Shown: positions 1 to 34,126 of the stretch, in pieces
Position numbering within the stretch: the stretch's first letter is position 1
Layout of the letters: each line of letters starts with the position of its first letter
Source of the DNA: a virus
Lineage: Duplodnaviria; Caudoviricetes
IMG/VR virus record: IMGVR_UViG_3300025771_000087
Span: 1 to 34,126 of that record
DNA: 34,126 bases
Direction: 5' to 3' (one strand)
The notes under the pieces: model-generated
The model's database searches: none
What the model was told of the DNA's origin: nothing
The model's input: only the letters and a program-made list of their open reading frames with translations
Program-made: the position numbers and the translations under genes

Positions 1-9
1 TGTGGATAA
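1..9 (-). promoter_or_regulatory. Perfect DnaA-box consensus (TTATCCACA on minus strand), function unknown
   Basis: Bases 1-9 TGTGGATAA are the reverse complement of TTATCCACA; only one copy noticed, so it may be chance. Confidence 0.2.
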
Positions 10-94
10 CCCCGTGTACAAAACCCGAATATTTTCATGCGCGAGATTTTTTGTCAAGTGACGACACACCGTAACTAACCGAAGGAGTGGCGAG

Positions 95-571
95 ATGCCC
101 ATCTCTGGTGCGAAACCGACTGGGAGACCCACGGTCAACCGCAACAAACCCACCTACGAGTGGACAACAGTAGACCCCACCCCATACGACGGGTGGCGTC
201 CCGAACTGCCTGAAACAAGGCAAGTCATGGTTAAAAACGGCGACGTTACCATCGTCCCCATCGAACAGCGAACACGCGACTGGTGGGAGGCCGTCTCGAC
301 CATGCCACACTGCAGACTGTGGTCGAAATCCGACTGGGCATTCGCCCTCGACACCGCCATGGTGCACGCCTCGTCCGTGTACGGTTCAGTCACTGCAGCC
401 TCTGAGCTACGCCAGAGAGAGAAAATACTTGGAACGACCCTCGACGCGAGACGCGACCTGCGTATCCGCTACAGCGAGGACGAGTTCTCACAAACCGCAA
501 CAACCACAACTGCAACCGCGCCGGTCGCTCAAATATCTGAGCGCCGTGCGAGACTGCTAAATGACGCGTGA
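95..571 (+). CDS. terS: Terminase small subunit
   Basis: AAGGAG RBS; directly upstream of and overlapping TerL; ELRQREKILGTT..ARRDLRI resembles actinophage TerS C-terminal motif. Confidence 0.8.
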   Translation: MPISGAKPTGRPTVNRNKPTYEWTTVDPTPYDGWRPELPETRQVMVKNGDVTIVPIEQRTRDWWEAVSTMPHCRLWSKSDWAFALDTAMVHASSVYGSVTAASELRQREKILGTTLDARRDLRIRYSEDEFSQTATTTTATAPVAQISERRARLLNDA

Positions 572-2235: not shown

Positions 2236-3573
2236 ATGGCAGACACACACTTAGACGCTGGCCAGCAGGCTCTGTTGAAGAAGCTGAAGGGTCGGCAAGC
2301 GCACTACCAGTTGATGGAACGTTACTACGATGGTGACGCGCCGTTGCCTGAGTCAGCTGAAGGTCAATCACGTGCGTACCGTCGTTTCCAACGCAAATCG
2401 CGGTTGAACTTGGCTCAGTTGTCGGTGGCTGCTGTGCGTGAACGGATGGTCATTGGTGGTTTCCGCACTGGTGCTGAAGATGACGAGAACGGGGACCGCG
2501 AGGCTCGCCGTTTGTGGAAGGCCAACCACCTCGACTATTTGAGTTCTGACTTGCATTCGTTCTTCCTGCGGTTCGGTTCCGCCTACGCCATTGTCGGCTA
2601 CCCTGATAGTTCAGACTTCCCGGTTGTGACGATTGAAGACCCACGCCAGGTTTGTGCGTACACCGACCCGACTATGCCACACGTGGTGGTTGAAGCTATC
2701 AAGGTGTTCTCTGAGGGTGGTACAAACTATTTGTACTGCTACCGGCCCGACTTGATTCAGGTGTTCGTGAAGGACGCTGACGACAACATGTTCGACCCTG
2801 AAGGTTATATGTTGTCGATGGAGATGACCAACACCTTAGGTGAAGTGCCGGTGGTGAAGTTCACTAACGCTGATGAGCGTGGCGAGTACGAACCGTACAT
2901 CGACATCATCGACCGTGTGAACCACATGATTCTGCAACGTCTGATTATCGCCACCACGCAGGCGTTCCGTCAACGAGTGCTGAAGGGTGATTTCCCGACT
3001 CACGACGCTGACGGGAACGAGATTGACTACAACGGTATTTTTGAGTCGTCTGCCGGTTCCCTGTGGATGATTCCTGAGAACGCTGACGTTGAAGAGTTAG
3101 CTCAAGCTGAAATCACTGGTATTTTGCAGGCTGTTCGTGCTGACATTCAGGATTTCGCTGCTGTGACTCGCACGCCGATGCACTATTTCATTCCTGAGGG
3201 TGTGAACGGTTCCGCTGAGGGTGCCCAGTTAGCGCGTGAAGGTTTGGTGTTCAAAGCTGAGGACCGTATCGCCCGTGCGTCTGCTGGGTGGTCTAAGGTG
3301 ATGAGCCTCATTTTCAGGTGGATGGGCGACGATGTGCGTGCCAGTTTGCTTGACCTTGAGCCTCTGTGGAAACCAGCTGAACGGTACTCGTTGGCTGAAC
3401 GTGCCGACGCTAACGTGAAGTTCGCTGATGTGCCGTTCAGGTCTCGCATGTCGTTGATTGCTCAGTTCTCCCCTGCTGAAATCGAGGAGATGGAAGCTGA
3501 GAAGGCTAGCGAGTCGTTGATTGCTCAGGCCGTCTTCATGGGTGAGGAACAGACACCACCGCCAGGACAGTAA
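2236..3573 (+). CDS. Portal protein (SPP1 Gp6-like)
   Basis: Follows TerL; RYYDGD near N-terminus, GEVPVVKFTN, IDRVN, AFRQR motifs typical of actinophage portals; 445 aa. Confidence 0.9.
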   Translation: MADTHLDAGQQALLKKLKGRQAHYQLMERYYDGDAPLPESAEGQSRAYRRFQRKSRLNLAQLSVAAVRERMVIGGFRTGAEDDENGDREARRLWKANHLDYLSSDLHSFFLRFGSAYAIVGYPDSSDFPVVTIEDPRQVCAYTDPTMPHVVVEAIKVFSEGGTNYLYCYRPDLIQVFVKDADDNMFDPEGYMLSMEMTNTLGEVPVVKFTNADERGEYEPYIDIIDRVNHMILQRLIIATTQAFRQRVLKGDFPTHDADGNEIDYNGIFESSAGSLWMIPENADVEELAQAEITGILQAVRADIQDFAAVTRTPMHYFIPEGVNGSAEGAQLAREGLVFKAEDRIARASAGWSKVMSLIFRWMGDDVRASLLDLEPLWKPAERYSLAERADANVKFADVPFRSRMSLIAQFSPAEIEEMEAEKASESLIAQAVFMGEEQTPPPGQ

Positions 3574-3574
3574 C

Positions 3575-5008
3575 ATGACTATCCGCACGGATTTGGCTTT
3601 GGCCAGTGGGAATCTCACCACTCCGTTGATTCGGAACACCGGTAGGGTGGCTGGTGGTTTGTTTTCCACGTTAGGGTCGTGGCGTGACGATGACGTGTTG
3701 CGTTACGTGCAACAGTTGAACCCGGTGTTGGGTGGTGCTAAGAAACAGGCTACCCAGGCGACTATCGCGTTTTACCAAAACATCGCCCGTTTGACTGGTC
3801 AGCCGTTCAACCGACCCGTGATTGCTGCTTCAGATTTGGCCACTAAGACTTTACGCAACAACATCACTAGTGAGACTTTGTTTAGACGTCCGTTCGTGGA
3901 CATGCGTCGTGGTTTGGCTAGTGGTGCGCCAATGACTGATGCTATTCAGGCTGGTGCTCGTCGTGCGAACCAGTTGGCTCAAACTGAGGTACAACTGGCT
4001 AAACGCCAAGTTGGGTACCGGGTACGGCAAGCGAACCAAAACATTGTTGGTTACATCCGCACGTTGACTGGCAGTGAGAACTGTGCTTTGTGTTATGTGG
4101 CTTCAACGCAACGGTACCATAAAGGCGATTTATTGCCGATTCACCCTGGGTGTGACTGCGGTGAGATGCCGTTGTATGGGACTGATGACCCAGGGCAGAT
4201 TATTGACCAGCAACGTCTAGATGCGACACATGAGGCGGTTGAGGCCAGGTTTGGTGAGTACGACCGTTCCGCTAGGTCGATTGATTACCGTAACATCATG
4301 GTTGAGGACCATGGTGAGATGGGGCCGGTGTTGACGTGGAAGAAGCACAACACCGCTAAGCTTGCTGATTTGGGTGAGGATTTGGTGTTGCCAACACCGG
4401 ATTTGACTTTGGGTGAAGATTTGTACGCTGGGCCTGTCCAAACACCGTATACTGTGGTTGTGGAGAGACTAAACAAGTTCCAGAGAAATGCGCTCAAACG
4501 TTACACTGGCAACGGTTTCTTGCCTATGAACGAGTACTTGCGTGGTGGGCGACGCTCTGGCTCGTACGGCGAGGATTTGGTGGACGACGTCAATAAACTT
4601 GAAACTGCGTTCGAGCAGGCCAAGTTGACGCAAGACACGGTGGTTTACCGTAACGTTGGTAAGGATGCGTTTGGATTGGGAGACGTCGGCTTCAAGGACG
4701 CTCCCGACATGTTAAAAAAGTTGGAAGGTCAGACTTTTGTCGAACCGGGTTTTATGTCTACTTCTTCGCTACAGGGTAACGTCGCCACTGGTGCCCAGGT
4801 GAGGATGAAAATAAACGCGCCTGAGGGTACGCCAGCTTTGGACCTTGAAGGGATGGACGAAGCGTTCGGCACCCAACTTGCTTTTGAGGGTGAAAAAGAG
4901 ATATTGTTTGGCCCAGGTACTAGGATGCGTATTGATAAGGTTACGATTATACCGGATGAAAGGTTCTTAGTGGACATTGAACTTACCCTTTTGAAAGCAG
5001 GTGAATGA
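3575..5008 (+). CDS. MuF-like minor head protein fused to C-terminal VIP2-like ADP-ribosyltransferase
   Basis: Between portal and scaffold; CALC..IHPGCDC MuF-type motif; C-terminal RYTG..MNEYLR, VYR, STS, EKE (R-S-E ART signature); start placed at ATG 3575 just after the portal stop. Confidence 0.85.
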   Translation: MTIRTDLALASGNLTTPLIRNTGRVAGGLFSTLGSWRDDDVLRYVQQLNPVLGGAKKQATQATIAFYQNIARLTGQPFNRPVIAASDLATKTLRNNITSETLFRRPFVDMRRGLASGAPMTDAIQAGARRANQLAQTEVQLAKRQVGYRVRQANQNIVGYIRTLTGSENCALCYVASTQRYHKGDLLPIHPGCDCGEMPLYGTDDPGQIIDQQRLDATHEAVEARFGEYDRSARSIDYRNIMVEDHGEMGPVLTWKKHNTAKLADLGEDLVLPTPDLTLGEDLYAGPVQTPYTVVVERLNKFQRNALKRYTGNGFLPMNEYLRGGRRSGSYGEDLVDDVNKLETAFEQAKLTQDTVVYRNVGKDAFGLGDVGFKDAPDMLKKLEGQTFVEPGFMSTSSLQGNVATGAQVRMKINAPEGTPALDLEGMDEAFGTQLAFEGEKEILFGPGTRMRIDKVTIIPDERFLVDIELTLLKAGE

Positions 5009-8922: not shown

Positions 8923-9153
8923 ATGTCGTACACATTGAAGCACAAAAGCAAAACCATCGAACTACCTGACTTCAACAACATTCCGGTTGGTGTGTTGCGT
9001 AAAGCACGGAACCTGAACGAACAAGAACAAACCTGGTTCATTCTGGAGTCTGTGTTGGACGAGAAAGCGTTAGCTATCCTCGATGAACTGCCCTTGTCTG
9101 AGTTTGCTAAGCACATGAAAGCTTGGACGGGTGGCGTAGCACTGGGGGAATAA
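8923..9153 (+). CDS. Tail assembly chaperone (gpG-like)
   Basis: AAGGAG RBS; between major tail and tape measure; ends at slippery GGGGGAA. Confidence 0.85.
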   Translation: MSYTLKHKSKTIELPDFNNIPVGVLRKARNLNEQEQTWFILESVLDEKALAILDELPLSEFAKHMKAWTGGVALGE

Positions 9154-9545
9154 CGGCGGTCCTCATCCTACGTGAGGACCACAAACCGGCGTTCGTTTAT
9201 GAGTTCAGGCACCGTTTCGGTCTTGGTTTGAAAGACTTAGGTACGACCGTCCCCTGGGATGAAGTGGTCTACCTGGTGGCGGTGTTGCTACGTGACCCAA
9301 CTTCGTGGTTGCAAACCAGTGTGAACAAATGGGACCACCCAATAACTTATGACTGGGCTGCTCAAGTCGCCACCTACGACCTGTTAGCTCAAGTGCATTC
9401 TAAACGTAAACCCAAACCGTACCCACGGCCGTGGAAGAACACAAACAGTACACGCAAGGGCACAGTCCGGAAGGACGCCCGTGAACTTTTGGCCAAAGCT
9501 AAGCAGGGAGAGATGAATTGGCAGAACAAGCCTACGCCTACGTAA
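9123..9545 (+). CDS. Tail assembly chaperone frameshift extension (gpGT C-terminal part)
   Basis: ORF in the -1 frame relative to 8923..9153; KPKPYPRPW motif typical of actinophage gpT. Confidence 0.8.
   Translation: MDGWRSTGGITAVLILREDHKPAFVYEFRHRFGLGLKDLGTTVPWDEVVYLVAVLLRDPTSWLQTSVNKWDHPITYDWAAQVATYDLLAQVHSKRKPKPYPRPWKNTNSTRKGTVRKDARELLAKAKQGEMNWQNKPTPT
9144..9150 (+). other. Programmed -1 frameshift site G GGG GAA
   Basis: CTG GGG GAA TAA at end of chaperone; the -1 frame is open to 9545. Confidence 0.8.
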
Positions 9546-19735: not shown

Positions 19736-19748
19736 CATGTCACAAAAC

Positions 19749-19778
19749 TTGACAAATAGTCAAATCATATGATTTAAT
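19749..19778 (+). promoter_or_regulatory. Sigma70-type early promoter P1 with overlapping palindrome
   Basis: TTGACA-N18-TTTAAT with TG extension; perfect palindrome AAATCATATGATTT at 19762-19775. Confidence 0.75.
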
Positions 19779-19824
19779 TGAAATATAAACAAGGCCAACC
19801 GGCCCAAATGAAAGGAATCGCAAA

Positions 19825-21896: not shown

Positions 21897-22782
21897 AGTC
21901 GTATCATACTCAGAGCTGGACACTTACCGGCAGTGCCCACTGAAACACCTGTGGGCTTACAAAGAGCGGTGGAAGCGACCAGTCGCTGAAGGTTCCGCAC
22001 TGGCCAAAGGTTCACTGTGGCACCTCGTCCTCGAAACCCACTATCTCACCTTGATGGACGGTGGTACCCTCGACCAGGCGATTGAATCGGTGCAGCCTCA
22101 CCTGTCCGACCAAGCGAGTGGCCTGCAAACCCCTGACCAAGAGTTAATACAGTGGATGTACGAAGGTTACATCGAACGGTACGGTGACGACAAAGAGTGG
22201 GAGATACTCGCAGTTGAGTACCCGTTCGTCATCAACTTGGCCGACCCAGACGGGAACCCGTCACCTTACGACATCAAAGGGAAGATTGACCTGGTGGTGC
22301 GTAACCGACTCAACGGTTCCATCTGGGTGGTGGACCACAAGTCAGGGTCGCAACTACCTGACACCATGGACCTGGAGATTGACGACCAGTTCGGTTTGTA
22401 CGTTTGGGCGTTGAACCAACCAGGTCACGACCACTGGCGACCCTCAGGTGCTATCCACTCAGCGACACGGACCACACGGAACCAGGCTGACCACCCAGGG
22501 TACACCGGGAAGTCGAAACCGCAGACGTTGGACCAGAGACACCGTCGCACTTACCTGAACCGGTCGCAGACTGAACTGCAGTCTATCGCGTTAGACGCGT
22601 GGGCGGTAGCTGCTAACGCCTACCCAACATCAGACGACCGACCACTCTACTCAGCACCAGACCCTAGGCAGTGTGGCTGGAAGTGCGACTACAAAGAGGT
22701 GCACCTGCTGGCACGTAAAGGCAAAGATGCACACACGACGCTCAGGGACTACGGTTTCGAGCAGGACTTCACGAGGCACTGA
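21886..22782 (+). CDS. Cas4/RecB-like PD-(D/E)XK exonuclease
   Basis: SYSELDTYRQCP, GSLWH, GKIDL, VVDHKS, CGWKCDY; start moved to ATG 21886. Confidence 0.85.
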   Translation: MENKVVSYSELDTYRQCPLKHLWAYKERWKRPVAEGSALAKGSLWHLVLETHYLTLMDGGTLDQAIESVQPHLSDQASGLQTPDQELIQWMYEGYIERYGDDKEWEILAVEYPFVINLADPDGNPSPYDIKGKIDLVVRNRLNGSIWVVDHKSGSQLPDTMDLEIDDQFGLYVWALNQPGHDHWRPSGAIHSATRTTRNQADHPGYTGKSKPQTLDQRHRRTYLNRSQTELQSIALDAWAVAANAYPTSDDRPLYSAPDPRQCGWKCDYKEVHLLARKGKDAHTTLRDYGFEQDFTRH

Positions 22783-24821
22783 TGCGACCGTCAACCTTGC
22801 TTAGGCTTTACACTGAAGGGTACGCACCCTTAGGGCCGGTCGCGCTTGACACTGAGACGTCCGGACTCCACGTGGATGACGGTGCACGAGTCGCAGTGGT
22901 GTCCATCGCATTCCAGATTGATGAAGCCTGGGAGCATATTCTGGAAAGCCACGGAAGCCCAACGGAGACACCGAATGACCCGGTTTGGGGTGTTGAGCCA
23001 TATTGCGGTTCACTCAAGGTCTCCTTGGTGTCCTTCGCGTTCCCGTTCGACCAAGGAGTCGCAGGTACCGGTAAAGTGGAAGACACAGGCCAGCAGTCGT
23101 TCTTCGACCAAGACGACAACCTCGACCGTGGTGAATGGGAAGCGCTACTCGAATGGTTGCAACTGGTCGGACCGAACGGGTTCGTCTTCCATAACGCCAA
23201 GTTCGACATGCACATGATGAGAGCCGGTGTCCGTAGGTGGCCAGGGTTGGGTATTGACCTCGCCAGGTGGTTGTACTGGGACACGCAAAACGTCTGCCAC
23301 CTCGCATGGCCAGAGACCAAAACCACCTCACTCAAGCCGACCGCTAAACGACTGTGGGGAATCAAAGAGACTGACGAGTCGGAGTTAGTGCAGACTTATT
23401 TGCGCAAAGCTAAGCTGCCAAGAGGTCGTTGGGACTTGGTGCCTTGGGACGTCATCGCACCGTACGCCCAGCAAGACGCCAGACTGACCCTCAGACTTTA
23501 CCTACACCAACTGCACCTGCTTGAGCAGGGTGAGCTGGCACCGTGGCTGGACACTGAACACCTCACACCTTACGAAGCCATCCAACGTCGGTTGGAAGTC
23601 ACGTTGATGCTGTATCGGATTGAACAACGGGGTCTGCCGTTCGACGGCCAACGGGCAGAGACAGTCGGCAAAGCCATCGACCTGAAAGTCACTGAACTGC
23701 AAGCGCAACTGCCCTTCAAACCAGCGACCCTACCAGTCGCCAAACACTACTGGTTCGGTACCGGCGACCGTAACGGGGTGAAAGGTCTCGGACTGAAACC
23801 CTACGCCTTCACCCAATCCGGTCTACCCCAAGTGAACGCCCAAGTCATCGACAAGATGGTGGCTAATAAAGTCAAAGGTGCCCAAGAGTGGCGTGACCTA
23901 CAGAAACTGCAAACCGTAGGTTCAAGGTGGTACCACGGTTGGGCTGAACTGGTCGGCACCGACGGCCGACTCAGGGCATCGTTCAGGCAAAACGGTACAG
24001 TCAGTGGTCGGTTCTCGGTCGAACGGGTTCAACTGCAAGCCATCCCCCACGACTACCGACTCACTAACGAAGTCCTCAAAGGGATACCGACACCCAGGCA
24101 ACTCATCGCCGATGGTGTGCCAGACGGTTACGAACTGTGGGAGTTAGACCTAGCTCAAGCTGAACTGAGAGTAGCTGCTTTGTACGCCGACTGCACCAGG
24201 ATGCTTGAGCTGATTAGGAATGGTGACGACCTACACGGTGACGCTGCTAAGGAGCTGTTCAGTGTGGCACCTGACGACCCTAAGTGGGGTGAGATGCGGA
24301 ACGTGGCGAAACGCGCTAACTTCTCCCTCATCTTCGGTGTTGGGCCTGACAAACTGCGCGGTGATATTGAAGCTCAAACCGGTATCGTCCTCGGTCGCGA
24401 CGAAACCAGGGACCTCGTTTATGCGTGGCACAACCTGTACCCTGAGTACCACCGTTCAATCGAGTCGCACATGCGAATCGTGGAGAAACGGCAGAAACAA
24501 CACGGGTTCGGTTGGGTCAGCTTATGGAATGGGGAACGTCGGTGGTTTACTCATGAGGAAGAAGCGCACAAAGCGTTCAACCAGAGGGTGCAACCGGCGT
24601 TGGCTCAGTTCGGAATGGATTGGGCGTTAGCCACTGAGCAACGGTTGATGAATCAAGACGGCCAAGGTATTGTGATGACTATTCACGACTCGTTGGTGTT
24701 GCTGCTGAGGGCGGATAAAGCTGAGGATACAGCTAAGGAGATACAGATGTTGGGGACGCAACTTTGGGAGCGCGTGTTCCCTGGTGTGCCAGGTGGTATC
24801 GATTGTAAGAGATGGTCCTAA
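22782..24821 (+). CDS. Family A DNA polymerase with 3'-5' exonuclease; candidate DpoZ-like
   Basis: DTET, HNAKFD, YAQQD exonuclease motifs; SGRFS, DLAQAELR (A), RNVAKRANFSLIFG (B), IHDS (C). Family is secure; Z-specificity is inferred only from linkage to purZ. Confidence 0.92.
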   Translation: MRPSTLLRLYTEGYAPLGPVALDTETSGLHVDDGARVAVVSIAFQIDEAWEHILESHGSPTETPNDPVWGVEPYCGSLKVSLVSFAFPFDQGVAGTGKVEDTGQQSFFDQDDNLDRGEWEALLEWLQLVGPNGFVFHNAKFDMHMMRAGVRRWPGLGIDLARWLYWDTQNVCHLAWPETKTTSLKPTAKRLWGIKETDESELVQTYLRKAKLPRGRWDLVPWDVIAPYAQQDARLTLRLYLHQLHLLEQGELAPWLDTEHLTPYEAIQRRLEVTLMLYRIEQRGLPFDGQRAETVGKAIDLKVTELQAQLPFKPATLPVAKHYWFGTGDRNGVKGLGLKPYAFTQSGLPQVNAQVIDKMVANKVKGAQEWRDLQKLQTVGSRWYHGWAELVGTDGRLRASFRQNGTVSGRFSVERVQLQAIPHDYRLTNEVLKGIPTPRQLIADGVPDGYELWELDLAQAELRVAALYADCTRMLELIRNGDDLHGDAAKELFSVAPDDPKWGEMRNVAKRANFSLIFGVGPDKLRGDIEAQTGIVLGRDETRDLVYAWHNLYPEYHRSIESHMRIVEKRQKQHGFGWVSLWNGERRWFTHEEEAHKAFNQRVQPALAQFGMDWALATEQRLMNQDGQGIVMTIHDSLVLLLRADKAEDTAKEIQMLGTQLWERVFPGVPGGIDCKRWS

Positions 24822-25196: not shown

Positions 25197-25219
25197 CGAC
25201 ACGCCCGGACTGCAAATAC

Positions 25220-25249
25220 TTGTCAAAGTGTCAAGTCATATGATTTAAT
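25220..25249 (+). promoter_or_regulatory. Promoter P2, near-duplicate of P1
   Basis: TTGTCA-N18-TTTAAT with TG extension; shares TCATATGATTTAAT and the downstream AACAAGG with P1. Confidence 0.7.
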
Positions 25250-25297
25250 AGTTATATGAACAAGGGCACAAGCCCCAAACCGACAGGAGAATCGCTC

Positions 25298-25768: not shown

Positions 25769-26022
25769 ACGTCACAGTCACCCTCACACCAGATGAGCTT
25801 CGCGCTCTCTACACCGCACTCGAACTATTCGACGCAGACCGAGACGCCCTGATTGAGGAAGACGACACCTGGGAACCCACCTTCGCCTCAATCGACAGTT
25901 TCTACCGGAAGGTCGTCATCGAGAAGACCATCCAAGACCTGGCCGAAGAGCACCCCAACGCGTCACGCACCCTCATCCGTAAGCACGTCGTGAAAGCACT
26001 CAAAGAGAACGGAGACAACTAA
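25765..26022 (+). CDS. Hypothetical protein
   Basis: ATGA and TAATG coupling on both sides. Confidence 0.65.
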   Translation: MNVTVTLTPDELRALYTALELFDADRDALIEEDDTWEPTFASIDSFYRKVVIEKTIQDLAEEHPNASRTLIRKHVVKALKENGDN

Positions 26023-26240
26023 TGAGTTACCGCGTCTGGTACCGAACCTACACCGAAGAAGTAGACGCCATCCCAAACGTCAAACCCTTCGACACCTACG
26101 AAGAAGCAGTCAAATGGGCCAGCGACTACATGACCCAAGAAAGCAGTCGATGGGACCAATACGTCAGAGCAGTCGAAATCCAACACATCCAATGTGGCGA
26201 AATCGTCTACTACTGTGAATGCCCAGAGGAGGCAGCATGA
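26022..26240 (+). CDS. Hypothetical protein
   Basis: GGAG RBS; coupled start; FDTYEEAVKWA. Confidence 0.65.
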   Translation: MSYRVWYRTYTEEVDAIPNVKPFDTYEEAVKWASDYMTQESSRWDQYVRAVEIQHIQCGEIVYYCECPEEAA

Positions 26241-26320
26241 ATTACCAAGCACTCCGTTTTTGGACAATCACCGGCATGGTCACCCTCACCATCCTCACCA
26301 CGCTGTACGACAGGGTGTGA
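26237..26320 (+). CDS. 27-aa hydrophobic peptide (not in ORF track)
   Basis: GAGGAGG RBS, ATGA overlap; MNYQALRFWTITGMVTLTILTTLYDRV. Confidence 0.55.
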   Translation: MNYQALRFWTITGMVTLTILTTLYDRV

Positions 26321-26339
26321 TGACTCAGAGGCAAGGCCA

Positions 26340-26416
26340 TGGTAGAATAGAGGTCCCTGGGTGGGGCACCACCGGTCTCCACCAACCCCACCCAGGGCCG
26401 ACCCAGCGGTACTGGG
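26340..26416 (+). promoter_or_regulatory. Extended -10 promoter and structured leader
   Basis: TGGTAGAAT at 26340-26348; 12-bp inverted repeat CCCTGGGTGGGG/CCCCACCCAGGG; second hairpin CCCAG/CTGGG. Confidence 0.5.
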
Positions 26417-26437
26417 CAGAAATAACGAAAGAAGAAA

Positions 26438-27316
26438 ATGCCGAAACAAGAAGATAACCCAACAGAGCCGGAGCAAATCCCGGCCCCCAAGAAACAAACC
26501 AACAGTCTGTTCGCCACACTAGCCGACAAAGAAGAACACCTCAACGTTCTCCTATTCGGACGAGAAGGCAGTGGGAAAACCACAGCAGCCTGCACCCTCG
26601 CAAACCTAGGTTACGGCAAAGTGCTAGTAATCAACGCGGAGGGTGGCCTCAAGAAGAACACACTCAAAAGGAGAGGGATAGACGTCAGTCGCATCCTCAT
26701 CTGGCCAAACGACGGACAACCCATCACCTACCACGGGATGGTCGAAGTCTACAACCAGATGAGAGCCGACCTCGACAAAGACCCCAAATCCTGGGCAGGC
26801 GTCATCTTCGACTCCGCAACCGAAATCGTCCCAGCGTTAGTAGACCAAGTGGCTAAAGACCGCATGGAGAAAAGCGCCAGACGAGGACAACCCATCGAAG
26901 GTATCGACGAGTTCTTTACCGACAGGTCAGACTACGGCACCATGTCCAAGATGTTCAGGGACATCCTCCGTAAGTTCCGCGACCTGCCAGTCCACTTCAT
27001 AGTCACCGCACTGGAACGACGTGACGTAGACGAAGACACCGGTAAAGTCCAATACGGACCAGCCGTCACACCAGGTGTCCAAGCCGACCTGCTAGGGTAC
27101 GTGGACCTCGTCCTCGCCTGCTCATCAGCAGACGACGAAGAAGGACTGCCCTTCAGAGCGCTCACCCGTTCAGCCGGTAAATACCGAGGGAAAGACCGGC
27201 TAGGTGTGCTGCCTAAAGTGCTCGTCGAACCCACCATCCCACGTATCCTCGAATACGAAGACGGAACCCTGACCGAAGAGAAAGACCCCAAACAAAAGGA
27301 GCTAAAGAATGCCTAA
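26438..27316 (+). CDS. AAA ATPase, Sak4-like (AAA_24) single-strand annealing protein
   Basis: GREGSGKT Walker A, AEGG, VIFDSATE, DYG, KDR; upstream of SSB-like gene. Confidence 0.8.
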   Translation: MPKQEDNPTEPEQIPAPKKQTNSLFATLADKEEHLNVLLFGREGSGKTTAACTLANLGYGKVLVINAEGGLKKNTLKRRGIDVSRILIWPNDGQPITYHGMVEVYNQMRADLDKDPKSWAGVIFDSATEIVPALVDQVAKDRMEKSARRGQPIEGIDEFFTDRSDYGTMSKMFRDILRKFRDLPVHFIVTALERRDVDEDTGKVQYGPAVTPGVQADLLGYVDLVLACSSADDEEGLPFRALTRSAGKYRGKDRLGVLPKVLVEPTIPRILEYEDGTLTEEKDPKQKELKNA

Positions 27317-27809
27317 GTTAGACGCCAAACTCAGCAAAGAGGTGGCTAACGCCGAAACCACCGGCGGTGGTGAGTTCGCACTCATCGAACCCGGCCGGTA
27401 CTTCGCCACCCTGTCCAACGTGGAAGTGCGAGAAGGACGCTACGGCCCACAGTGGTCAGCCGAATTCAACGACATCCAAGACGCCAAAGGCAACCGTCAA
27501 CCCGGACGTCAATGGTACAACCTCAACGTCCCAGTAGACGGGCACATGCACCCAGCCTACCAAAACGGTGAAGACAAATGGTTGCGCTTCCAAGAAGTCA
27601 ACCGGTCACGGATGAAGCAGTTCTTCGAAGCATTCGGATACACCACCGATTCCGACACTGACGAGATGGTAGGCGAACGAGTCGCCATCGACATCGAAAT
27701 CCGGACAATCCAGAGCGGGCCTCGCACCGGCGAGCGCGTCAACGGCGTCAAAGCCGTATCACCAGCGACCAACCTCGCAGGTGGAGTCATCGAAGACGCA
27801 CCGTTCTAA
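27309..27809 (+). CDS. SSB-like protein (DUF669-like)
   Basis: FALIEPGRY N-terminal pattern; acidic EDAPF C-terminal tail. Confidence 0.75.
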   Translation: MPKLDAKLSKEVANAETTGGGEFALIEPGRYFATLSNVEVREGRYGPQWSAEFNDIQDAKGNRQPGRQWYNLNVPVDGHMHPAYQNGEDKWLRFQEVNRSRMKQFFEAFGYTTDSDTDEMVGERVAIDIEIRTIQSGPRTGERVNGVKAVSPATNLAGGVIEDAPF

Positions 27810-27815
27810 CAAGCC

Positions 27816-27856
27816 GGGGACCGGGGGAGTTTTTGAGCGATTCGCCCTCGGTCCCC
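27816..27856 (+). terminator. Intergenic stem-loop
   Basis: GGGGACCGGGGG pairs with CCCTCGGTCCCC. Confidence 0.5.
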
Positions 27857-27875
27857 ACCCTAAAAAGGAGACCAA

Positions 27876-30536
27876 ATGAAGCTCACAGATGAGCAAAAAG
27901 AAGCCGTAGACCGTTCAGGCGGTCAAAATCTACTAGCAGCACTCGAACTTGCTGAAGACGGCTGGCACGTATTCCCACTCAGACCAGGCAGTAAAGTCCC
28001 ACTAATCTCCAAAGCACAAGGTGGCCGTGGGTGCCTCGACGGGACAACCGACCCAGACCAAATCGTCGAATGGTGGACCAACGTCCCCAACGCAGGGATA
28101 GGTGCCAACCTAGGCCCAGACAGGGTCGCATTCGACATCGACATCCAACACGGAGGCCGACACCTAGACTCATTCCCCACAACACGCACCCACCTAAGTG
28201 GTCGCGGTAACGGAAACAAACACCTCATCTACCGGTACGAACCAGGCAGTAAAGCATCCCAACTGAAAAGCAAAACAGCAGCATTAGGCCGAGGGATGGA
28301 CATCAAAATCGGCACCGGCGGTTACATCGTCATGCCACCCACCAGGCACGAAAGCACCGGCCAACCCTACACCGTCTCACCTATCAACAACGGTGAGGAA
28401 CACCTACTAACCGACAGTGAACTTGACGCCATCCTCACTGAAGCCAACCAGCAAAGTGCAACACCCAAAACCAGTGTAACACCAACCACCGACAAGTCCA
28501 CCTTAGCTGCCCTACTGTCCGACCCACCAGCTGAAGGTGGCCGGAACGACTGGCTCACCAAAGTCGCCGGACACTACGCCAAAAAATACCGAGCCGACAA
28601 AGCACTCTACGACAACGGCGTCAACATCGCCAACGACATGCTCGACGACCCACTACCAAACGACGAAGTGGCCAAAACCGCAGACTCAGTGTGGACACTC
28701 GAACAAACCAACCACCCTGAACGTTCCGCCGTACTCGAAAACGGCTACCTCGTCTCCGACGGCCCAACCCTCATGTGCCAAACCATCGTCCGGCAAGGCG
28801 ACCAACAAATGCCAGCGTTGGGGCACTTCGCCGACTTCGACATCCAAGCCATCGGCGTCGCCATAGACAACCAAGACCGACGCACCTACTGGGTGAGGAT
28901 AATCACCTGGGAGAAACACATCGAAACCGCCATCTCAGCGGAAACCTTCGGCGACGACCGCGCCGTCAAACGGTGGCTCGCATCCAGAGGACTCAGTATA
29001 GACCCACCCATCAACGCCATGCCACGGACCGCCATCGGCACCAGACTACTCAGATACCTCAACTCACAAAACCCCATCAAAGTGCAAATCACCGACCACC
29101 TAGGGTGGGACCTCAACCTGCAAGCGTTCGTCACCCACGACGGCCTAATCACATCCGAAGGGCACACACCGAAAGAACAAGCTGGAGTCGTCGCATCCCC
29201 CGTCCTCGTCGAACGAGACGTCGCACCGTTCCACTACGGGTTCGAACACGGACCAGCGAAAGCGGAAGCGGTACTCAACGAAGTACTCACCTTCCAAGAA
29301 GACATCACATCGTCAGTGTTCGGAGCATGGTGGGCAGCATGTTGGCTCAAACCGCAAATCCAAACACGCACCTCACTGTTCCCCTTCTTCGGAGTTGAAG
29401 CCGTCAGTGAAAGTGGCAAAACCAACGGTTTCTTCGACCTCATGGTGCAACTCAACGGAAACACCAGAGGTGAAATCGCACCCACCAAACCAGTCCTCAG
29501 AGACTACGCCAGCGCGAACAAATCCGGCATCGTCTGGGCTGACGACCTCGACTCACTCGAACCCTACGGTGAACTGCTCAGAGCAGCAACATCCAACGGG
29601 GTGTGGTCCAAGATGGACATCGACCGTAACTCAGTCAAAAACATCCAAATGGTCGCGCCGTTGTTCCTCACCGGCGAAACGTTAGGGATGGACACCCAGA
29701 AAGCACTGATGGACCGGTCAATCATCCTCAACCCAATCAGTCCTAAAGGACGTAAAAGCGCACGCGGTGACTGGGCACAATGGGAAGACATCCTCGACCT
29801 CATGACCAACTTCCCCAAAGACAAGGGTGGCCTGACCGTCCTCAGCGGTTGGTACCTCATGAAAGCACTCGACTACAGTGGTGAGGTGATGGAAGCACTC
29901 AAACGAGCCAAAACGAAAGGCCAAGGGAGACACGGGGACAAACTCGCAATACTCAGGGCCGGTGCACACTTACTCGAAATCCTCACAGGGCAAGAAAACC
30001 CCGGAGAAGGTACACACACCGTCAACGTTGAACAGTGGATAGCGACCCAAGAACTGCAAGGGTGGTTAGACAGGGACAACACACTCACAACCCAACTCGT
30101 CCCCTGGGCACTCAGGTCATTCGGATACCCAGAGCACGCCAGCACCACAGACCACGGGCGGTTCGAAGGCATCGACACACCAGCATTCAGTAAAAACAAC
30201 GAAGACGAAACCGAAATCTGGGTGTCAATCCCACTGCTCGCACAAGCCTGGGCAAGAGACCGCAACCACCGTATCGACACCCGTACCCAAAGCGAAACCG
30301 CACTCAAACAACAAGCCGACTCACTCAAAACCGAAGGTGGCAAAACATTCCACATCCTAGGTGGGAACCACAAAGGCTGGTACCGGAAAATACCCAAAGA
30401 ATACGTCCAAGCTATCCTAGACCGTGCCCAAGGCACCCAGGTAAGGCCAGGTAAGGACCAGGTAAGGGGTATATCCTTACTTGAAGAACCCCGCAACGAC
30501 GGGCAAAAAGACCCAGGTAAGGAGGTAAGGCATTGA
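27876..30536 (+). CDS. Bifunctional primase-polymerase with PriCT and helicase-like domain
   Basis: VFPL..KVP, AFDID, HLIYR, GGYIVMPPT (Prim-Pol); EGGRNDWL (PriCT-1); SESGKT and WADD (NTPase). Confidence 0.88.
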   Translation: MKLTDEQKEAVDRSGGQNLLAALELAEDGWHVFPLRPGSKVPLISKAQGGRGCLDGTTDPDQIVEWWTNVPNAGIGANLGPDRVAFDIDIQHGGRHLDSFPTTRTHLSGRGNGNKHLIYRYEPGSKASQLKSKTAALGRGMDIKIGTGGYIVMPPTRHESTGQPYTVSPINNGEEHLLTDSELDAILTEANQQSATPKTSVTPTTDKSTLAALLSDPPAEGGRNDWLTKVAGHYAKKYRADKALYDNGVNIANDMLDDPLPNDEVAKTADSVWTLEQTNHPERSAVLENGYLVSDGPTLMCQTIVRQGDQQMPALGHFADFDIQAIGVAIDNQDRRTYWVRIITWEKHIETAISAETFGDDRAVKRWLASRGLSIDPPINAMPRTAIGTRLLRYLNSQNPIKVQITDHLGWDLNLQAFVTHDGLITSEGHTPKEQAGVVASPVLVERDVAPFHYGFEHGPAKAEAVLNEVLTFQEDITSSVFGAWWAACWLKPQIQTRTSLFPFFGVEAVSESGKTNGFFDLMVQLNGNTRGEIAPTKPVLRDYASANKSGIVWADDLDSLEPYGELLRAATSNGVWSKMDIDRNSVKNIQMVAPLFLTGETLGMDTQKALMDRSIILNPISPKGRKSARGDWAQWEDILDLMTNFPKDKGGLTVLSGWYLMKALDYSGEVMEALKRAKTKGQGRHGDKLAILRAGAHLLEILTGQENPGEGTHTVNVEQWIATQELQGWLDRDNTLTTQLVPWALRSFGYPEHASTTDHGRFEGIDTPAFSKNNEDETEIWVSIPLLAQAWARDRNHRIDTRTQSETALKQQADSLKTEGGKTFHILGGNHKGWYRKIPKEYVQAILDRAQGTQVRPGKDQVRGISLLEEPRNDGQKDPGKEVRH

Positions 30537-30600
30537 GAGACACATTCTTGCACGCGCACGCGCACGCGCCCGAGGTCACAATAAGTCCTTACCTACTTAC
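30437..30600. repeat. CCAGGTAAGG iteron-like array, candidate replication origin
   Basis: Direct copies at 30437, 30447, 30458, 30513, partial at 30523; inverted CCTTAC at 30475 and 30587; (GCACGC)n at 30550-30569. Confidence 0.7.
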
Positions 30601-30614
30601 GACACACACCCCAC

Positions 30615-30647
30615 TTGACAAAGAGGAACACCACCCAGTGGTACAAT
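30615..30647 (+). promoter_or_regulatory. Promoter of the purZ operon
   Basis: Extended -10 TGGTACAAT at 30639-30647; TTGACA at 30615 (21-nt spacer, longer than usual). Confidence 0.6.
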
Positions 30648-30682
30648 AGAAACACCGACACCGCAACACTAAAGGAGACACC

Positions 30683-31822
30683 ATGTCAACAATCGATATC
30701 ATCACAGGAGCACAATACGGCTCCGAAGGTAAAGGACACGTCACAGCACAACTCGTCCACCGGTACAACCACGACGGAGAACGTACCACCAACATAAGAG
30801 TGGCCGGACCCAACGCCGGACACACCGTCATCGACGAAGGAGGCATGGCATTCCCACTGCGCACCATACCAGTCGGAGCAGCCATCAACCACGACGCCGA
30901 CCTCTACATCGCACCAGGCTCAGAAATCGACCTCGAAGTGCTACACCAAGAAATCCTCACCCTGCGGCAAGCCGGACACCCAGTGCGGAACCTATACGTC
31001 AGTGGGGAAGCCACACTGCTCACCCAGAAACACAAAGACCGCGAAACCGAAATGGACATGCACGGCACCATCGGCTCAACCGGTAAAGGCATCGGAGCAG
31101 CCAGAGCCGACCGGATAATGCGCACAGGCGAACGAATCATCGACAACTGGGAAGCACGCACCCTCATCACCGCACTCAAAGCGCAAATCCTCACCGCACC
31201 CGAACACCTGCTGTTCATGGCCAACCAACTCAACCAACACAACCGGCACATCCTCATCGAAGGCACCCAAGGTTACGGCCTAGGGTTACACGCCGGACGG
31301 TACCCACAATGCACCAGCTCCGACGCCAGAGCCATCGACTTCCTAGGGATGGCCGGAATCTCACCCTGGGCACCAGGAGTTGAACGAGTCACACCCTGGT
31401 TAGTCGCCAGGGTGTACCCAATCAGAGTCGCCGGTAACAGTGGCCCACTCGAAGGCGAAACCAGCTGGGAACAGCTAGGTCTCCCCGAAGAGAAAACCAC
31501 CGTCACCCACAAAGTGCGACGAGTCGGAGAATGGGACGCCAAACTGATGCGAGAAGCAGCAGTGGCAAACGGAATCGCAGTGCACCAATACGGCATGCCA
31601 CCAACCAACTACAACGCACCCGGACGAGTCGCCCTAACCATGGTAGACCAGAAAATCCCACAAATCCACGGACTCAGCAACCTTGACGACGCAGACGACG
31701 ACACCCAAGACCTAGTCTGGGAGTTAATCCGCGACGTCGAGAGCAACGCCGGAACCAAAGTGGGGATGTTCACCACATCAGCCGACACCTGCATCTGGAA
31801 CGAAGGACAGGTAGACTGGTGA
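30683..31822 (+). CDS. purZ: PurA-like 2-aminodeoxyadenylosuccinate synthetase (PurZ, likely PurZ0 type)
   Basis: GAQYGSEGKG (Ser14 where PurA has catalytic Asp), GPNAGHT, IGSTGKGIG, EGTQG, YPQCTS, PIRVAGNSGP, TTVTHKVRRVG, TMVD. Confidence 0.9.
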   Translation: MSTIDIITGAQYGSEGKGHVTAQLVHRYNHDGERTTNIRVAGPNAGHTVIDEGGMAFPLRTIPVGAAINHDADLYIAPGSEIDLEVLHQEILTLRQAGHPVRNLYVSGEATLLTQKHKDRETEMDMHGTIGSTGKGIGAARADRIMRTGERIIDNWEARTLITALKAQILTAPEHLLFMANQLNQHNRHILIEGTQGYGLGLHAGRYPQCTSSDARAIDFLGMAGISPWAPGVERVTPWLVARVYPIRVAGNSGPLEGETSWEQLGLPEEKTTVTHKVRRVGEWDAKLMREAAVANGIAVHQYGMPPTNYNAPGRVALTMVDQKIPQIHGLSNLDDADDDTQDLVWELIRDVESNAGTKVGMFTTSADTCIWNEGQVDW

Positions 31823-32142
31823 GCGAACTCAACGAATGGTGGGTCGAAATGGCCCGTAAAGAAATCGACGACATGACCGCCAAGATGGTCGAATACGGAG
31901 GGAACGGCAGAGCTGAAGACCTCATCCAAATCGGCCAAACCGTCGCCCTCACAGCAAAACGGAAAGTAGACGACGAAGAAGCAACCGAACTAGGCATCTA
32001 CTTCTACCTCATCGGCAAAATGGCCCGATGGACGGCAGCAGTCGTCGAAGGAGACCGACCCTCAGACGACACCCTACACGACATCAGCGTCTACACGCGG
32101 ATGGCTCAACGTGCCCGTCACAGTGGTGGCTGGCCAAACTAA
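31819..32142 (+). CDS. All-alpha MazG-like nucleotide pyrophosphatase (DUF1599/Nmad1-like)
   Basis: GTGA overlap with purZ; K..EYG, K.AR, DDTLHDISVY pattern. Confidence 0.6.
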   Translation: MSELNEWWVEMARKEIDDMTAKMVEYGGNGRAEDLIQIGQTVALTAKRKVDDEEATELGIYFYLIGKMARWTAAVVEGDRPSDDTLHDISVYTRMAQRARHSGGWPN

Positions 32143-32155
32143 AAAGGAGACCCAC

Positions 32156-33025
32156 ATGTTAATCTACCTCGCACACCCAATCGACAACCGCACCAATAAA
32201 ATGCCCGACGAACTAGACCGACGGTTAGACTACATCCGCCACAGTGTCAAAGGTTCCGGACACCACCTCTACCACCCAGGTAAAGCGTTCGTAGTTGGTA
32301 AGAAAACCACACCTGACTGGACAATCGAACACATCAACCGGACAGCTCAAAACACCGCAGACGCCCTGTTGGTGGTGTGGCCCAAAGGGTCCAAATCATG
32401 GGGAGTCCCAGCTGAAGTGGAACGGGCACGCACCCTCGGACAACCAGTCGCCATCCTAACCGACGACCACACCAGCTGGGCCATGCCAATGCCAGAAGCC
32501 GACCCACTCGTCAAAGTGTTCAGTATGGACAGTGGCAACAACCTCAAAGCCATACAGTGGCTGGAGAAGTTCCACTCACCGAAACGACGCGACCTACAAG
32601 CCGTCAAATGGACCCGGACTGCAGAGACCGGCCAATCCCCACGGAGAGCATACATGGACGACGCAGGGTTCGACCTGTACGTCTCCAAAGAAGTCACCAT
32701 CCCACCCGGCAAGTTCGTAGACGTCCACACCGACGTCGCAGTTGAACTGCCAGACGACAGTTGGGCGATGCTCACCGGCCGTTCCAGCACCCTCAGGAGC
32801 AAAGGTCTCCTCGTCAACCAAGGCATCATCGACCCAGGCTACCGAGGTGAACTGTTCATCGGATGTTGGAACATGACCACCAAAGAAATCACCGTGCACC
32901 CCGGAGACCGAATCGGCCAACTCATCATCATGTGCAACCGCACAGCTCAAGTGAGCCTGGTCGAAACAGACCACCTGTCCTACCACCCGAGAGGCATAAA
33001 AGGCTTTGGCTCAACCGGCGAGTGA
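32156..33025 (+). CDS. Fusion: NDT/DNPH1-like N-hydrolase plus trimeric dUTPase-fold domain
   Basis: AAAGGAG RBS; N-terminal IYLAHP..ADALL..SWGVPAEVERA..GQPV; C-terminal AGFDL, GRSS, GIIDPGYRGE, GDRIGQL, RG.KGFGSTG. Confidence 0.85.
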   Translation: MLIYLAHPIDNRTNKMPDELDRRLDYIRHSVKGSGHHLYHPGKAFVVGKKTTPDWTIEHINRTAQNTADALLVVWPKGSKSWGVPAEVERARTLGQPVAILTDDHTSWAMPMPEADPLVKVFSMDSGNNLKAIQWLEKFHSPKRRDLQAVKWTRTAETGQSPRRAYMDDAGFDLYVSKEVTIPPGKFVDVHTDVAVELPDDSWAMLTGRSSTLRSKGLLVNQGIIDPGYRGELFIGCWNMTTKEITVHPGDRIGQLIIMCNRTAQVSLVETDHLSYHPRGIKGFGSTGE

Positions 33026-33689
33026 CACCCTGGAGTTTCCACTGTTGACGTTGATGAACAACATCGACAAACTCACCCGACCCTACACGGACCGGATAGA
33101 GCTTGAAGAGGACGGCCGTAGAAACACCGTCACAGTGGAACACCCAGCGTTGCTCGACCAACTGGACGACGCCATACTGAGCAGCCAAACCATGGTGAAG
33201 CGTGGCTCAACCCTAGCCTCCCAACGGAGCGTGTTAGACGCCTCCGCATTCATGCTCCAGCACGCCATCAGGCAAGCCATCAAACTGATGTGGTCACAAT
33301 ACATCGACGACCCCATGCCAAAGGACATGAAACACGCACTCAGGCTGTGGCACATGCAGTTCAGGAAAGAGGTCACCGACCGGCAACTCAGTGCCGACAC
33401 CATCTGGAAACACGTACGCCACACCAACACCTGGATAATGCAAATCGAGTTGAAGTTCGACCCACCAATCACCCTTGAAGTAACCAGGCCCTGCCCAGAG
33501 TGTGACCAACAGTTCGTCTACAACGACTATAACGAAAGGGTCGCCTCAGTGGTGGTTACCTGGCAAAGAAGCTTCGAACGGAGTGCTGCTATCTGCCGTG
33601 CCTGTGGCAAATCCTGGGTTGGTGAGTCAGAGCTTAGACAGTTGCGTTACGATATTGACCAAAGAGACACGCTGTGGGGTGGTGTTTGA
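33006..33689 (+). CDS. Zn-finger hypothetical protein, possible late regulator
   Basis: CPEC..CRAC; position before HNH and terminase; true start may be TTG 33045 or ATG 33054. Confidence 0.6.
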   Translation: MAQPASDTLEFPLLTLMNNIDKLTRPYTDRIELEEDGRRNTVTVEHPALLDQLDDAILSSQTMVKRGSTLASQRSVLDASAFMLQHAIRQAIKLMWSQYIDDPMPKDMKHALRLWHMQFRKEVTDRQLSADTIWKHVRHTNTWIMQIELKFDPPITLEVTRPCPECDQQFVYNDYNERVASVVVTWQRSFERSAAICRACGKSWVGESELRQLRYDIDQRDTLWGGV

Positions 33690-33715
33690 CTTTATGAAGA
33701 TGAATGTGATAAAAT
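33686..33715 (+). promoter_or_regulatory. Candidate promoter before HNH
   Basis: TTGACT-N18-TAAAAT with TG extension; overlaps the in-frame ATGs of the HNH gene, so interpretation is uncertain. Confidence 0.45.
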
Positions 33716-34047
33716 GGGAAACGCATGGCACCAGCGTATCTGAAAGCTGGAAAGGTAGTACCCGTCGCGAAAGACTCCCCTCTAACTGGTCACAGTTACG
33801 GGATACAGTCATCGCAAGAGCCTCCCATATATGTGAAGCCAAGATGAAAGACGGGTCTCGTTGTACCGATAAAGGTACTGACGTTGACCACATCAAACCG
33901 GGTGACGACCACAGCCTCGACAACCTGCAACTTTTGTGCAAGTGGCACCACAACAAGAAAAGTAGCCGGGAGGGTAACAAAGCAAGACCCCGGTTATCCG
34001 AGAAACGGCCGAAAGAAGCGCATCCGGGACTAAACCCCTCCCTATAG
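33694..34047 (+). CDS. HNH endonuclease (terminase-associated)
   Basis: RRERLPSNW, DVDHIKPGDDHSLDNLQLLCKWHHNKKS, EAHPG; adjacent to TerS if circularised; start uncertain. Confidence 0.85.
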   Translation: MKMNVIKWETHGTSVSESWKGSTRRERLPSNWSQLRDTVIARASHICEAKMKDGSRCTDKGTDVDHIKPGDDHSLDNLQLLCKWHHNKKSSREGNKARPRLSEKRPKEAHPGLNPSL

Positions 34048-34126
34048 GTGTGGCAACGGTGGCAGTGGTGGCATTGGTAATGTGGTATACAATGGAGGGA
34101 ATCTCCCCCCTGGGTGCTGCGCTACA

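What the first reader, a model, noticed from the sequence alone, without database searches (positions are those of the whole stretch)
30683..33025. Three-gene 2-aminoadenine (Z) operon with no recognisable DatZ: candidate variant Z-genome pathway
Seen: purZ, a translationally coupled MazG/DUF1599-like gene and an N-hydrolase-dUTPase fusion sit behind their own promoter. Known: characterised Z systems use PurZ plus host PurB and kinases to make dZTP, MazZ/DUF550 to supply dGMP from dGTP, and an HD-domain DatZ and/or a selective DpoZ to exclude dATP. I see no HD phosphohydrolase anywhere in this apparently complete genome. Inference: the two downstream genes take over dGMP supply and dATP removal using different folds.
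Basis: partly seen in the sequence, partly recalled or inferred. Interest (0 to 1): 0.92.

Follow-up and report, generated by a model that had tools for sequence, protein, structure and literature searches.

The report
Known PurZ0 Z-module, one unstudied gene
This uncultured phage carries the already published gene set (PurZ0, DmtZ-DutZ, DpoZ) with which related phages replace adenine by 2-aminoadenine in their DNA, so it likely does the same; only the small middle gene is unstudied, and it is possibly a further nucleotide-cutting enzyme.

Summary
The three genes are real and there is no DatZ; the genome is complete to about 11 bases. But the 'variant pathway' is published. Gene 1 is PurZ0. 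Gene 3 (start ATG 32156, 289 aa) is a DmtZ-DutZ fusion, 44.5% identical to the characterised Wayne enzyme, with the DmtZ catalytic residues kept. PMC12884076 shows DutZ cuts dATP and dGTP, DmtZ cuts dAMP, and 98 of 98 PurZ0 phages use dutZ. This scan reported like modules before on other DNA (e1-3426204). What remains is the 107-aa middle gene: an unnamed family, behind purZ0 in 66 of 80 loci, swapped for DUF5664 in the other 14 (one lineage), fused to PurZ0 in 3 database proteins, and not named in the papers I read. Its predicted four-helix fold weakly resembles MazZ/MazG and DUF6378, below significance. It is probably a core, untested part of the pathway, most likely a dGTP pyrophosphatase (about 0.4). 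Verdict: new member of a known kind, with one useful lead.

The parts
30615..30647 (+). candidate promoter: TTGACA, 21-nt spacer, TGG-TACAAT (extended -10 type); unproven
   Evidence: sequence; not listed by consensus scan; absent before purZ in L060-L062
30683..31822 (+). purZ0, 2-amino-deoxyadenylosuccinate synthetase, 379 aa; Ser14, Asp322
   Evidence: NCBIfam NF038379 349 bits, cut-off 300; PDB 7VF6 286 bits against phiVC8 PurZ 102; 49% to Wayne; residues
31819..32142 (+). unnamed four-helix protein, 107 aa, start overlaps purZ stop; homologue of Ghobes gp51 and Archimedes gp51; candidate all-alpha nucleotide pyrophosphatase
32156..32575 (+). DmtZ domain (NDT-family dAMP N-hydrolase/transferase), residues 1-140 of the fusion; Y4, D10, P41, N61, E87
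   Evidence: 40% to Wayne N-domain, E 1e-27; numbering; PF05014 weak, E 0.026
32603..33025 (+). DutZ domain (trimeric dUTPase fold; dATP/dGTP/dUTP diphosphatase in relatives)
   Evidence: PF00692 E 1.7e-26; 56% to Wayne over 130 aa
22782..24821 (+). Wayne-type DpoZ (family A polymerase), outside the given coordinates; Phe518 in motif B
   Evidence: NCBIfam NF038381 795 bits, cut-off 350; 48.8% to Wayne

Best explanation
This is a PurZ0-type gene cluster (purZ0, an unnamed gene, dmtZ-dutZ, plus dpoZ 6 kb upstream) that likely makes 2-aminoadenine (Z) DNA the way phages Wayne and Ghobes do. By homology: DutZ cuts dGTP to dGMP and dATP to dAMP; DmtZ cuts dAMP to adenine and can move its sugar-phosphate onto free Z; PurZ0 joins aspartate to dGMP; host PurB and kinases finish dZTP (no purB among the 48 ORFs scanned); DpoZ prefers dZTP. 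DutZ plus DmtZ stand in for DatZ and MazZ. The middle gene is inferred to be a conserved helper of PurZ0, most likely an all-alpha pyrophosphatase that adds dGMP supply (about 0.4), in the slot that DUF5664 holds in Wayne. Shown here: gene identities, residues, gene order, absence of DatZ. Inferred: every activity, and Z in the virion.
For: Family cut-offs passed for PurZ and Wayne-type DpoZ. Ser14 and nearest solved structure 7VF6. Gene 3 is 44.5% identical over its length to Wayne DmtZ-DutZ, E 1e-77; Ghobes Y6, D12, P57, N77, E103 align with Y4, D10, P41, N61, E87. Activities and mutants are in PMC12884076, which also reports dutZ in 98 of 98 PurZ0 genomes, dmtZ in 85, fused in 77. The 127 phage records that match the dUTPase domain at E<=1e-30 are Arthrobacter 105, Microbacterium 18, Gordonia 2, Micrococcus 1, Curtobacterium 1, the host genera of the purZ hits. 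Of 80 purZ0 loci, 79 have dut and 74 dmt nearby. Middle gene: 66 of 80 loci, DUF5664 in the other 14, never both; 43 of 44 loci found through the middle gene have purZ upstream; 3 of 186 homologues are fused to PurZ0; best solved fold match is S-2L MazZ (Z 6.5, rmsd 2.8, 64 aligned).
Against: No chemistry on this phage. GATC is almost absent (observed/expected 0.02; Wayne 1.14, Ghobes 1.05), which full Z protection would not require. For the middle gene as an enzyme: no HMM or Foldseek-PDB match at E<=0.001; Z 6.5 is within the range of unrelated helical folds; profile match to DUF6378 is not significant (E 0.043 and 0.21); invariant K67/R70 sit where, by spacing, MazZ has its E34/E35/E38 metal ligands; the swap with DUF5664 is one event; one locus (L047) has the gene with no purZ or dut within 6 kb; none of the fetched loci encodes a PurZ0 fusion, so the three fusions are unchecked at DNA level.
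Confidence: 0.9

Rival explanations
1. The system is the known one, but the middle protein is not an enzyme: it is a nucleotide-binding or structural partner of PurZ0 that steadies or regulates it.
For: Always directly behind purZ0, often overlapping it (window, Archimedes); fused to PurZ0 in 3 proteins; no EExxE metal cluster; many invariant aromatic residues (W7, W8, Y26, Y63, Y92, W105).
Against: PurZ0 of Wayne-type phages works without it (0 matches in Wayne); the gene in its slot there is a proven dNTPase; invariant K22, K67, R70, S82, D84, D88 look like a phosphate and metal site (inference).
Confidence: 0.25
2. The middle protein is an enzyme with another target than dGTP: dATP or dADP removal, or clearing ribo-Z nucleotides so that Z stays out of RNA.
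For: DUF5664 in the same slot prefers dATP tenfold over dGTP; the family is present in loci that lack dmtZ (7 of 20), where extra adenine removal would help.
Against: DutZ already cuts dATP fast (kcat 6-13 per s) but dGTP slowly (0.6-1.4 per s), so dGMP supply is the weaker step; fusions are to the dGMP consumer.
Confidence: 0.25
3. The phage makes only partly substituted or unsubstituted DNA; the cluster is weakly active or only shifts nucleotide pools.
For: Near-total GATC avoidance, and AATT 0.16, TTAA 0.21, unlike Wayne.
Against: All four genes are intact with key residues; GC-only 6-mer palindromes are more depleted (0.19) than A/T-containing ones (0.77), as in Wayne (0.28, 0.72); Ghobes also lacks AATT.
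Confidence: 0.1

Closest known systems
PurZ0 / DmtZ-DutZ / DUF5664-1 / DpoZ-1 system of Arthrobacter phage Wayne (PMC12884076)
   Same: purZ0 (49%), fused dmtZ-dutZ (44.5%), DpoZ (48.8%), no DatZ or MazZ, cluster near the genome end
   Different: Wayne has DUF5664 and a 73-aa gene between purZ0 and dmtZ-dutZ and lacks the 107-aa family; this phage lacks DUF5664
Gordonia phages Ghobes and Archimedes (PurZ0 structure 7VF6)
   Same: purZ0 followed at once by a homologue of the middle gene (gp51, 40-42%), then dmtZ and dutZ
   Different: dmtZ and dutZ are separate genes with small genes between; Ghobes encodes its own adenylosuccinate lyase; here the cluster is a compact trio
PurZ / MazZ / DatZ triad of S-2L and phiVC8 (PMC8342488)
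   Same: same product; weak fold likeness of the middle protein to S-2L MazZ (Z 6.5)
   Different: other PurZ subgroup, HD-domain DatZ, MazZ with an E34/E35/E38 and E50/D53 metal site; no sequence match to phiVC8 DatZ or MazZ-2
DUF6378 (PF19905) and DUF1599/Nmad1 (PF07659)
   Same: four-helix layout; K-x-x-R and D-(S/T)-x-x-D-x-x-x-Y in register; 16 of rows 8-50 in the viral fold search carry these names; Atlas score 0.91, on 10% and 14% of members
   Different: no HMM match; profile E 0.043-0.21; the middle family is tied to purZ0

Membership tests
PurZ / PurZ0 | Ser in place of the catalytic Asp13 of PurA | tested here: met
   S14 aligns with phiVC8 S14; criterion from PMC12884076
PurZ / PurZ0 | score over the curated PurZ cut-off | tested here: met
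   NF038379 349 bits, cut-off 300; below the PurA cut-offs
PurZ / PurZ0 | belongs to the PurZ0 subgroup | tested here: met
   7VF6 286 bits against 102 for phiVC8 PurZ; nested among Wayne, Ghobes and related rows (quick tree); D322 shared with Wayne and Ghobes where phiVC8 has N297 (its role in guanine recognition is recalled)
PurZ / PurZ0 | condenses Asp with dGMP; NTP donor | not testable with these tools
   needs assay; GTP use by PurZ0 is recalled, and one sentence of PMC12884076 gives the preferences the other way round
DmtZ | NDT-type domain with Tyr/Asn/Glu triad, Asp12 and Pro57 | tested here: met
   Y4, N61, E87, D10, P41; W108 pairs with W124 but not in the larger alignment
DmtZ | dAMP hydrolase and dAMP-to-Z transferase activity | not testable with these tools
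   shown for Wayne and Ghobes only
DutZ | trimeric dUTPase domain of the PurZ0-phage group, next to purZ0 | tested here: met
   PF00692; 56% to Wayne; 127 best phage records come from PurZ0 host genera; no dUTPase tree built
DutZ | dATP and dGTP diphosphatase activity | not testable with these tools
   shown for Wayne and Ghobes
Wayne-type DpoZ | curated HMM cut-off; Phe at the helix O Tyr | tested here: met
   NF038381 795 bits, cut-off 350; F518, as Wayne; criterion PMC8599892
DatZ | HD/YfbR domain anywhere in the genome | tested here: not met
   0 matches for PF13023, PF12917, PF01966; no tblastn hit of phiVC8 DatZ
MazG-like all-alpha NTP pyrophosphatases (middle gene) | MazG/HisE helical fold | tested here: inconclusive
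   model pLDDT 92.9; rank 1 is MazZ 7ody Z 6.5, rmsd 2.8, 64 aligned; 6 of the top 20 rows are of this superfamily (2a3q assigned from recall); all Z under 8; Foldseek no E<=0.001
MazG-like all-alpha NTP pyrophosphatases (middle gene) | EExxE plus ExxD metal ligands | tested here: inconclusive
   D84 186/187 and D88 187/187, E57 185/187, but K67/R70 invariant where spacing puts the first motif; no residue-level superposition available
MazG-like all-alpha NTP pyrophosphatases (middle gene) | dimer or tetramer | not tested
   the complex-prediction queue was full
DUF1599 / DUF6378 (middle gene) | Pfam HMM match | tested here: not met
   0 of 42 family members match either at E<=1; PF07659 0 in genome
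DUF1599 / DUF6378 (middle gene) | remote homology by profile, fold and motif | tested here: inconclusive
   motifs in register, E 0.043 and 0.21; Foldseek E 0.15-0.6; reverse search with a poor model (pLDDT 58) did not list the family in 50 rows
DUF5664 / DUF550 | Pfam HMM match in the genome | tested here: not met
   profile comparison with DUF5664 E 0.31

The most novel reading that the evidence does not exclude
The 107-aa family (944 clusters at 50% identity) is the overlooked, ancestral core enzyme of PurZ0 Z-genome pathways: an all-alpha pyrophosphatase with a Lys/Arg plus two-Asp site that feeds dGMP to PurZ0, lost only in the Arthrobacter lineage that took DUF5664. It would be a new MazZ analogue and a first biochemical handle on the DUF6378/DUF1599-like phage proteins.
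Probability: 0.4. Interest if true: 0.55.

Novelty: new member of a known kind. Interest (0 to 1): 0.27.

Why it matters
The pathway itself adds only one more uncultured member. The lead is the middle gene: it sits beside purZ0 in the model phages Ghobes and Archimedes and in 28 of 29 purZ0 lineages sampled, yet the paper that dissected the pathway does not name it. One purified protein and a nucleotide panel would settle it, and could improve Z-DNA production in cells. The compact trio here is a convenient minimal cassette for that test.

Tried and rejected
Overlooked DatZ: three HD HMMs, an HD motif scan and tblastn found none. Incomplete record: rejected by the end-to-start junction. GTG 32111 start: rejected for ATG 32156 (Shine-Dalgarno; match to relatives). 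Single-protein scan of viral contigs with purZ found nothing; the alignment found 202, of which the best 80 were kept. The middle family was not found in species genomes (239 candidates, 0 confirmed). Solved-structure sequence search with its profile: nothing under E 0.16. Foldseek on PDB: nothing at E<=0.001; second look rank 1 MazG 1vmg Z 5.6. Homodimer prediction could not be run, so oligomer state is open. The one-clade test on the purZ0 tree did not finish and the outgroup branch is very long, so 'ancestral' is provisional. The L047 record was not held, so purZ elsewhere in it is untested. Palindrome avoidance as a sign of Z: 3 of 3 purZ0 genomes and 1 of 4 controls (9NA) deplete GC-only 6-mers more than A/T ones: not diagnostic. 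The original PurZ0 paper and a 2013 paper on Nmad domains were not held; either may mention the middle gene. My notebook gives N62 for the DmtZ Asn; N61 is right.

Full report
Setting. The window is a tailed-phage genome of 34,126 bases, 54% G+C, with terminase, portal, capsid, tail and lysis genes, then replication genes and an HNH gene at the end. CheckV rates it 76% complete, but contig L023 is 100% identical over window 25819-34125 and goes on through 11 bases into window 1-420, so it is a full genome unit. Its purZ, polymerase and dUTPase are closest to phages of Arthrobacter, Microbacterium, Curtobacterium and Gordonia; an actinobacterial host is inferred, not shown.

Observation. The three genes exist as described. 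The second starts on the purZ stop (GTGA, 31819-31822); the third most likely starts at ATG 32156, 13 bases after the second stop, behind AAGGAG. No HD protein is present: three HD-type HMMs gave 0 matches at E<=1 while ringing in 8, 10 and 14 of 14 control genomes, and phiVC8 DatZ gave no tblastn hit. DUF5664, DUF550 and DUF1599 also gave 0. The promoter is a candidate only: good hexamers but a 21-base spacer, with TG before the -10; the scan did not list it and L060-L062 have other sequence there.

Gene 1. It passes the curated PurZ model (349 bits, cut-off 300), has Ser14, and matches the Archimedes PurZ0 structure 7VF6 at 286 bits against 102 for phiVC8 PurZ. It is 49% identical to Wayne and 41% to Ghobes PurZ0.

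Gene 3. It aligns over its whole length with Wayne gp53 (44.5%, E 1e-77). PMC12884076 (I read the abstract, introduction, part of the methods, all results and the discussion, and searched its one held supplement file) names this protein DmtZ-DutZ. DutZ cuts dATP, dGTP and dUTP to monophosphates, dATP about ten times faster than dGTP; DmtZ cuts dAMP to adenine and transfers deoxyribose-phosphate to Z; 98 of 98 PurZ0 genomes have dutZ, 85 dmtZ, 77 fused. The residues shown to matter in Ghobes DmtZ (Y6, D12, P57, N77, E103) align with Y4, D10, P41, N61, E87 here. [quoted passage not shown] So the missing DatZ is expected.

Polymerase. 22782-24821 passes the Wayne-type DpoZ model (795 bits, cut-off 350) and has the Tyr-to-Phe change that PMC8599892 gives as shared by both DpoZ groups (F518).

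The middle gene. It has no Pfam, PHROG or NCBIfam family. It matches 31 of 50,697 phage records: Microbacterium 18, Gordonia 6, Streptomyces 5, Micrococcus 1, Curtobacterium 1, none from Arthrobacter; the purZ search gave 18, 6 and 5 for the first three genera and 105 for Arthrobacter (records not matched one by one). It is gp51 in Ghobes and Archimedes, right behind purZ0, and absent from Wayne. A profile finds 944 clusters. Starting from the middle gene (57 loci, some duplicates and two of this same phage): 43 of the 44 with at least 600 bases upstream have purZ; 36 of the 37 with at least 1,600 downstream have dut; L047 is the one exception in both. Starting from purZ0 (best 80 of 202): 66 have the middle gene and no DUF5664, 14 have DUF5664 and no middle gene (DUF5664 sought with a one-sequence model, so distant copies could be missed). 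With the window, Wayne and Ghobes these fall into 29 groups at 70% identity: 28 with the middle gene, 1 with DUF5664. The DUF5664 carriers form one branch inside the others, so this is one swap, and its direction depends on an unsure root. Three of 186 homologues (P0047, P0170, P0175; 39-50% identical to each other) carry the domain fused behind PurZ0; I could not check their DNA.

Its fold. The model is confident (pLDDT 92.9) with four helices. Against 48,161 solved chains the best match is S-2L MazZ (Z 6.5, rmsd 2.8, 64 aligned) and 6 of the top 20 rows are MazG/HisE-type, but all Z are under 8, mixed with unrelated helical proteins; Foldseek finds nothing significant in PDB. Among viral models, after its own family, 16 of 43 rows are named DUF6378 or Nmad (E 0.15-0.6), and the Atlas agrees weakly. 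A profile comparison with a narrow DUF6378 set puts K67, R70, D84, D88 and Y92 on that family's invariant K, R, D, D and Y, but at E 0.043 and 0.21, and a reverse search with a poor model did not return the family. MazZ binds metals with E34/E35/E38 and E50/D53 (PMC8342488, one section and passages); the middle protein keeps an acidic pair but, by spacing, has Lys/Arg at the first motif. So it looks like an all-alpha nucleotide enzyme but is not shown to be a member.

Mechanism. Shown: identities, residues, order, absence of DatZ. Taken from characterised relatives: DutZ supplies dGMP and removes dATP, DmtZ removes dAMP, PurZ0 makes the succinyl intermediate, host enzymes finish dZTP, DpoZ selects it (0.9). 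Inferred: the middle protein belongs to the pathway (about 0.8) and most likely supplies dGMP (0.4), since dGTP is DutZ's slow substrate, the fusions are to PurZ0 and a dNTPase fills its slot in Wayne; rivals are a non-catalytic partner (0.25) or another substrate (0.25).

In print? Searches for PurZ/dUTPase/aminoadenine, PurZ0, DUF1599/MazG/phage, DUF6378, Nmad1, DpoZ/Ghobes, PurZ/Microbacterium phage/diaminopurine, Z-genome/Archimedes and DutZ/DmtZ/DUF5664 showed no paper on the middle family; PMC12884076 has 0 hits for its Ghobes accession, MazG or DUF1599 in text and held supplement, though figures are not held. The original PurZ0 paper and the 2021 Science papers were not available. Earlier notes of this scan reached the same verdict on other DNA; none matched this sequence.

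Verdict. New member of a known kind; interest 0.27, nearly all of it from the middle gene.

Noticed in passing
window 26438-33025: Strong third-codon-position bias in the replication and Z genes: T 0.03-0.07, G 0.14-0.17, A about 0.3, C about 0.5, against T 0.23-0.28 in the main structural genes. Shared by purZ of the three closest relatives (L060-L062), not by Wayne or Ghobes. Unexplained.
   Followed up: partly
whole window: GATC occurs twice in 34 kb (observed/expected 0.02), AATT 0.16, TTAA 0.21; GC-only 6-mer palindromes 0.19 against 0.77 for A/T-containing ones. Wayne and Ghobes do not avoid GATC.
   Followed up: partly
window 19744-19808 and 25215-25279: Two 65-base intergenic copies, 78% alike, each with a -35-like and a TG-extended -10-like element and a GTCAA inverted half-site: likely paired early promoters or operators.
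   Followed up: no
L047:6001-6321: A copy of the middle gene with no purZ, dmt or dut within 6 kb on either side, among small unknown genes; the rest of the contig could not be searched.
   Followed up: partly
window 3521-5008: Head-morphogenesis protein fused to an ADP-ribosyltransferase-like domain (PF03496, E 3e-27).
   Followed up: no
L142:2963-4315; P0042, P0043, P0066, P0087: The middle domain often has long, variable N-terminal extensions (450 aa in Streptomyces phage Keanu; zinc-finger-like repeats in some) and is doubled in P0042 and P0043.
   Followed up: no
L144:32089-33222; L142:7474-8297: Ghobes and Keanu encode their own adenylosuccinate lyase; this phage showed none among 48 ORFs scanned.
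   Followed up: no
P0014: A homologue of the middle gene (67%) named from Streptosporangium on a 306-kb contig: possibly a PurZ0 prophage in a bacterial chromosome.
   Followed up: no
window 8923-9545: Tail assembly chaperone pair in overlapping frames, probably joined by a programmed frameshift.
   Followed up: no
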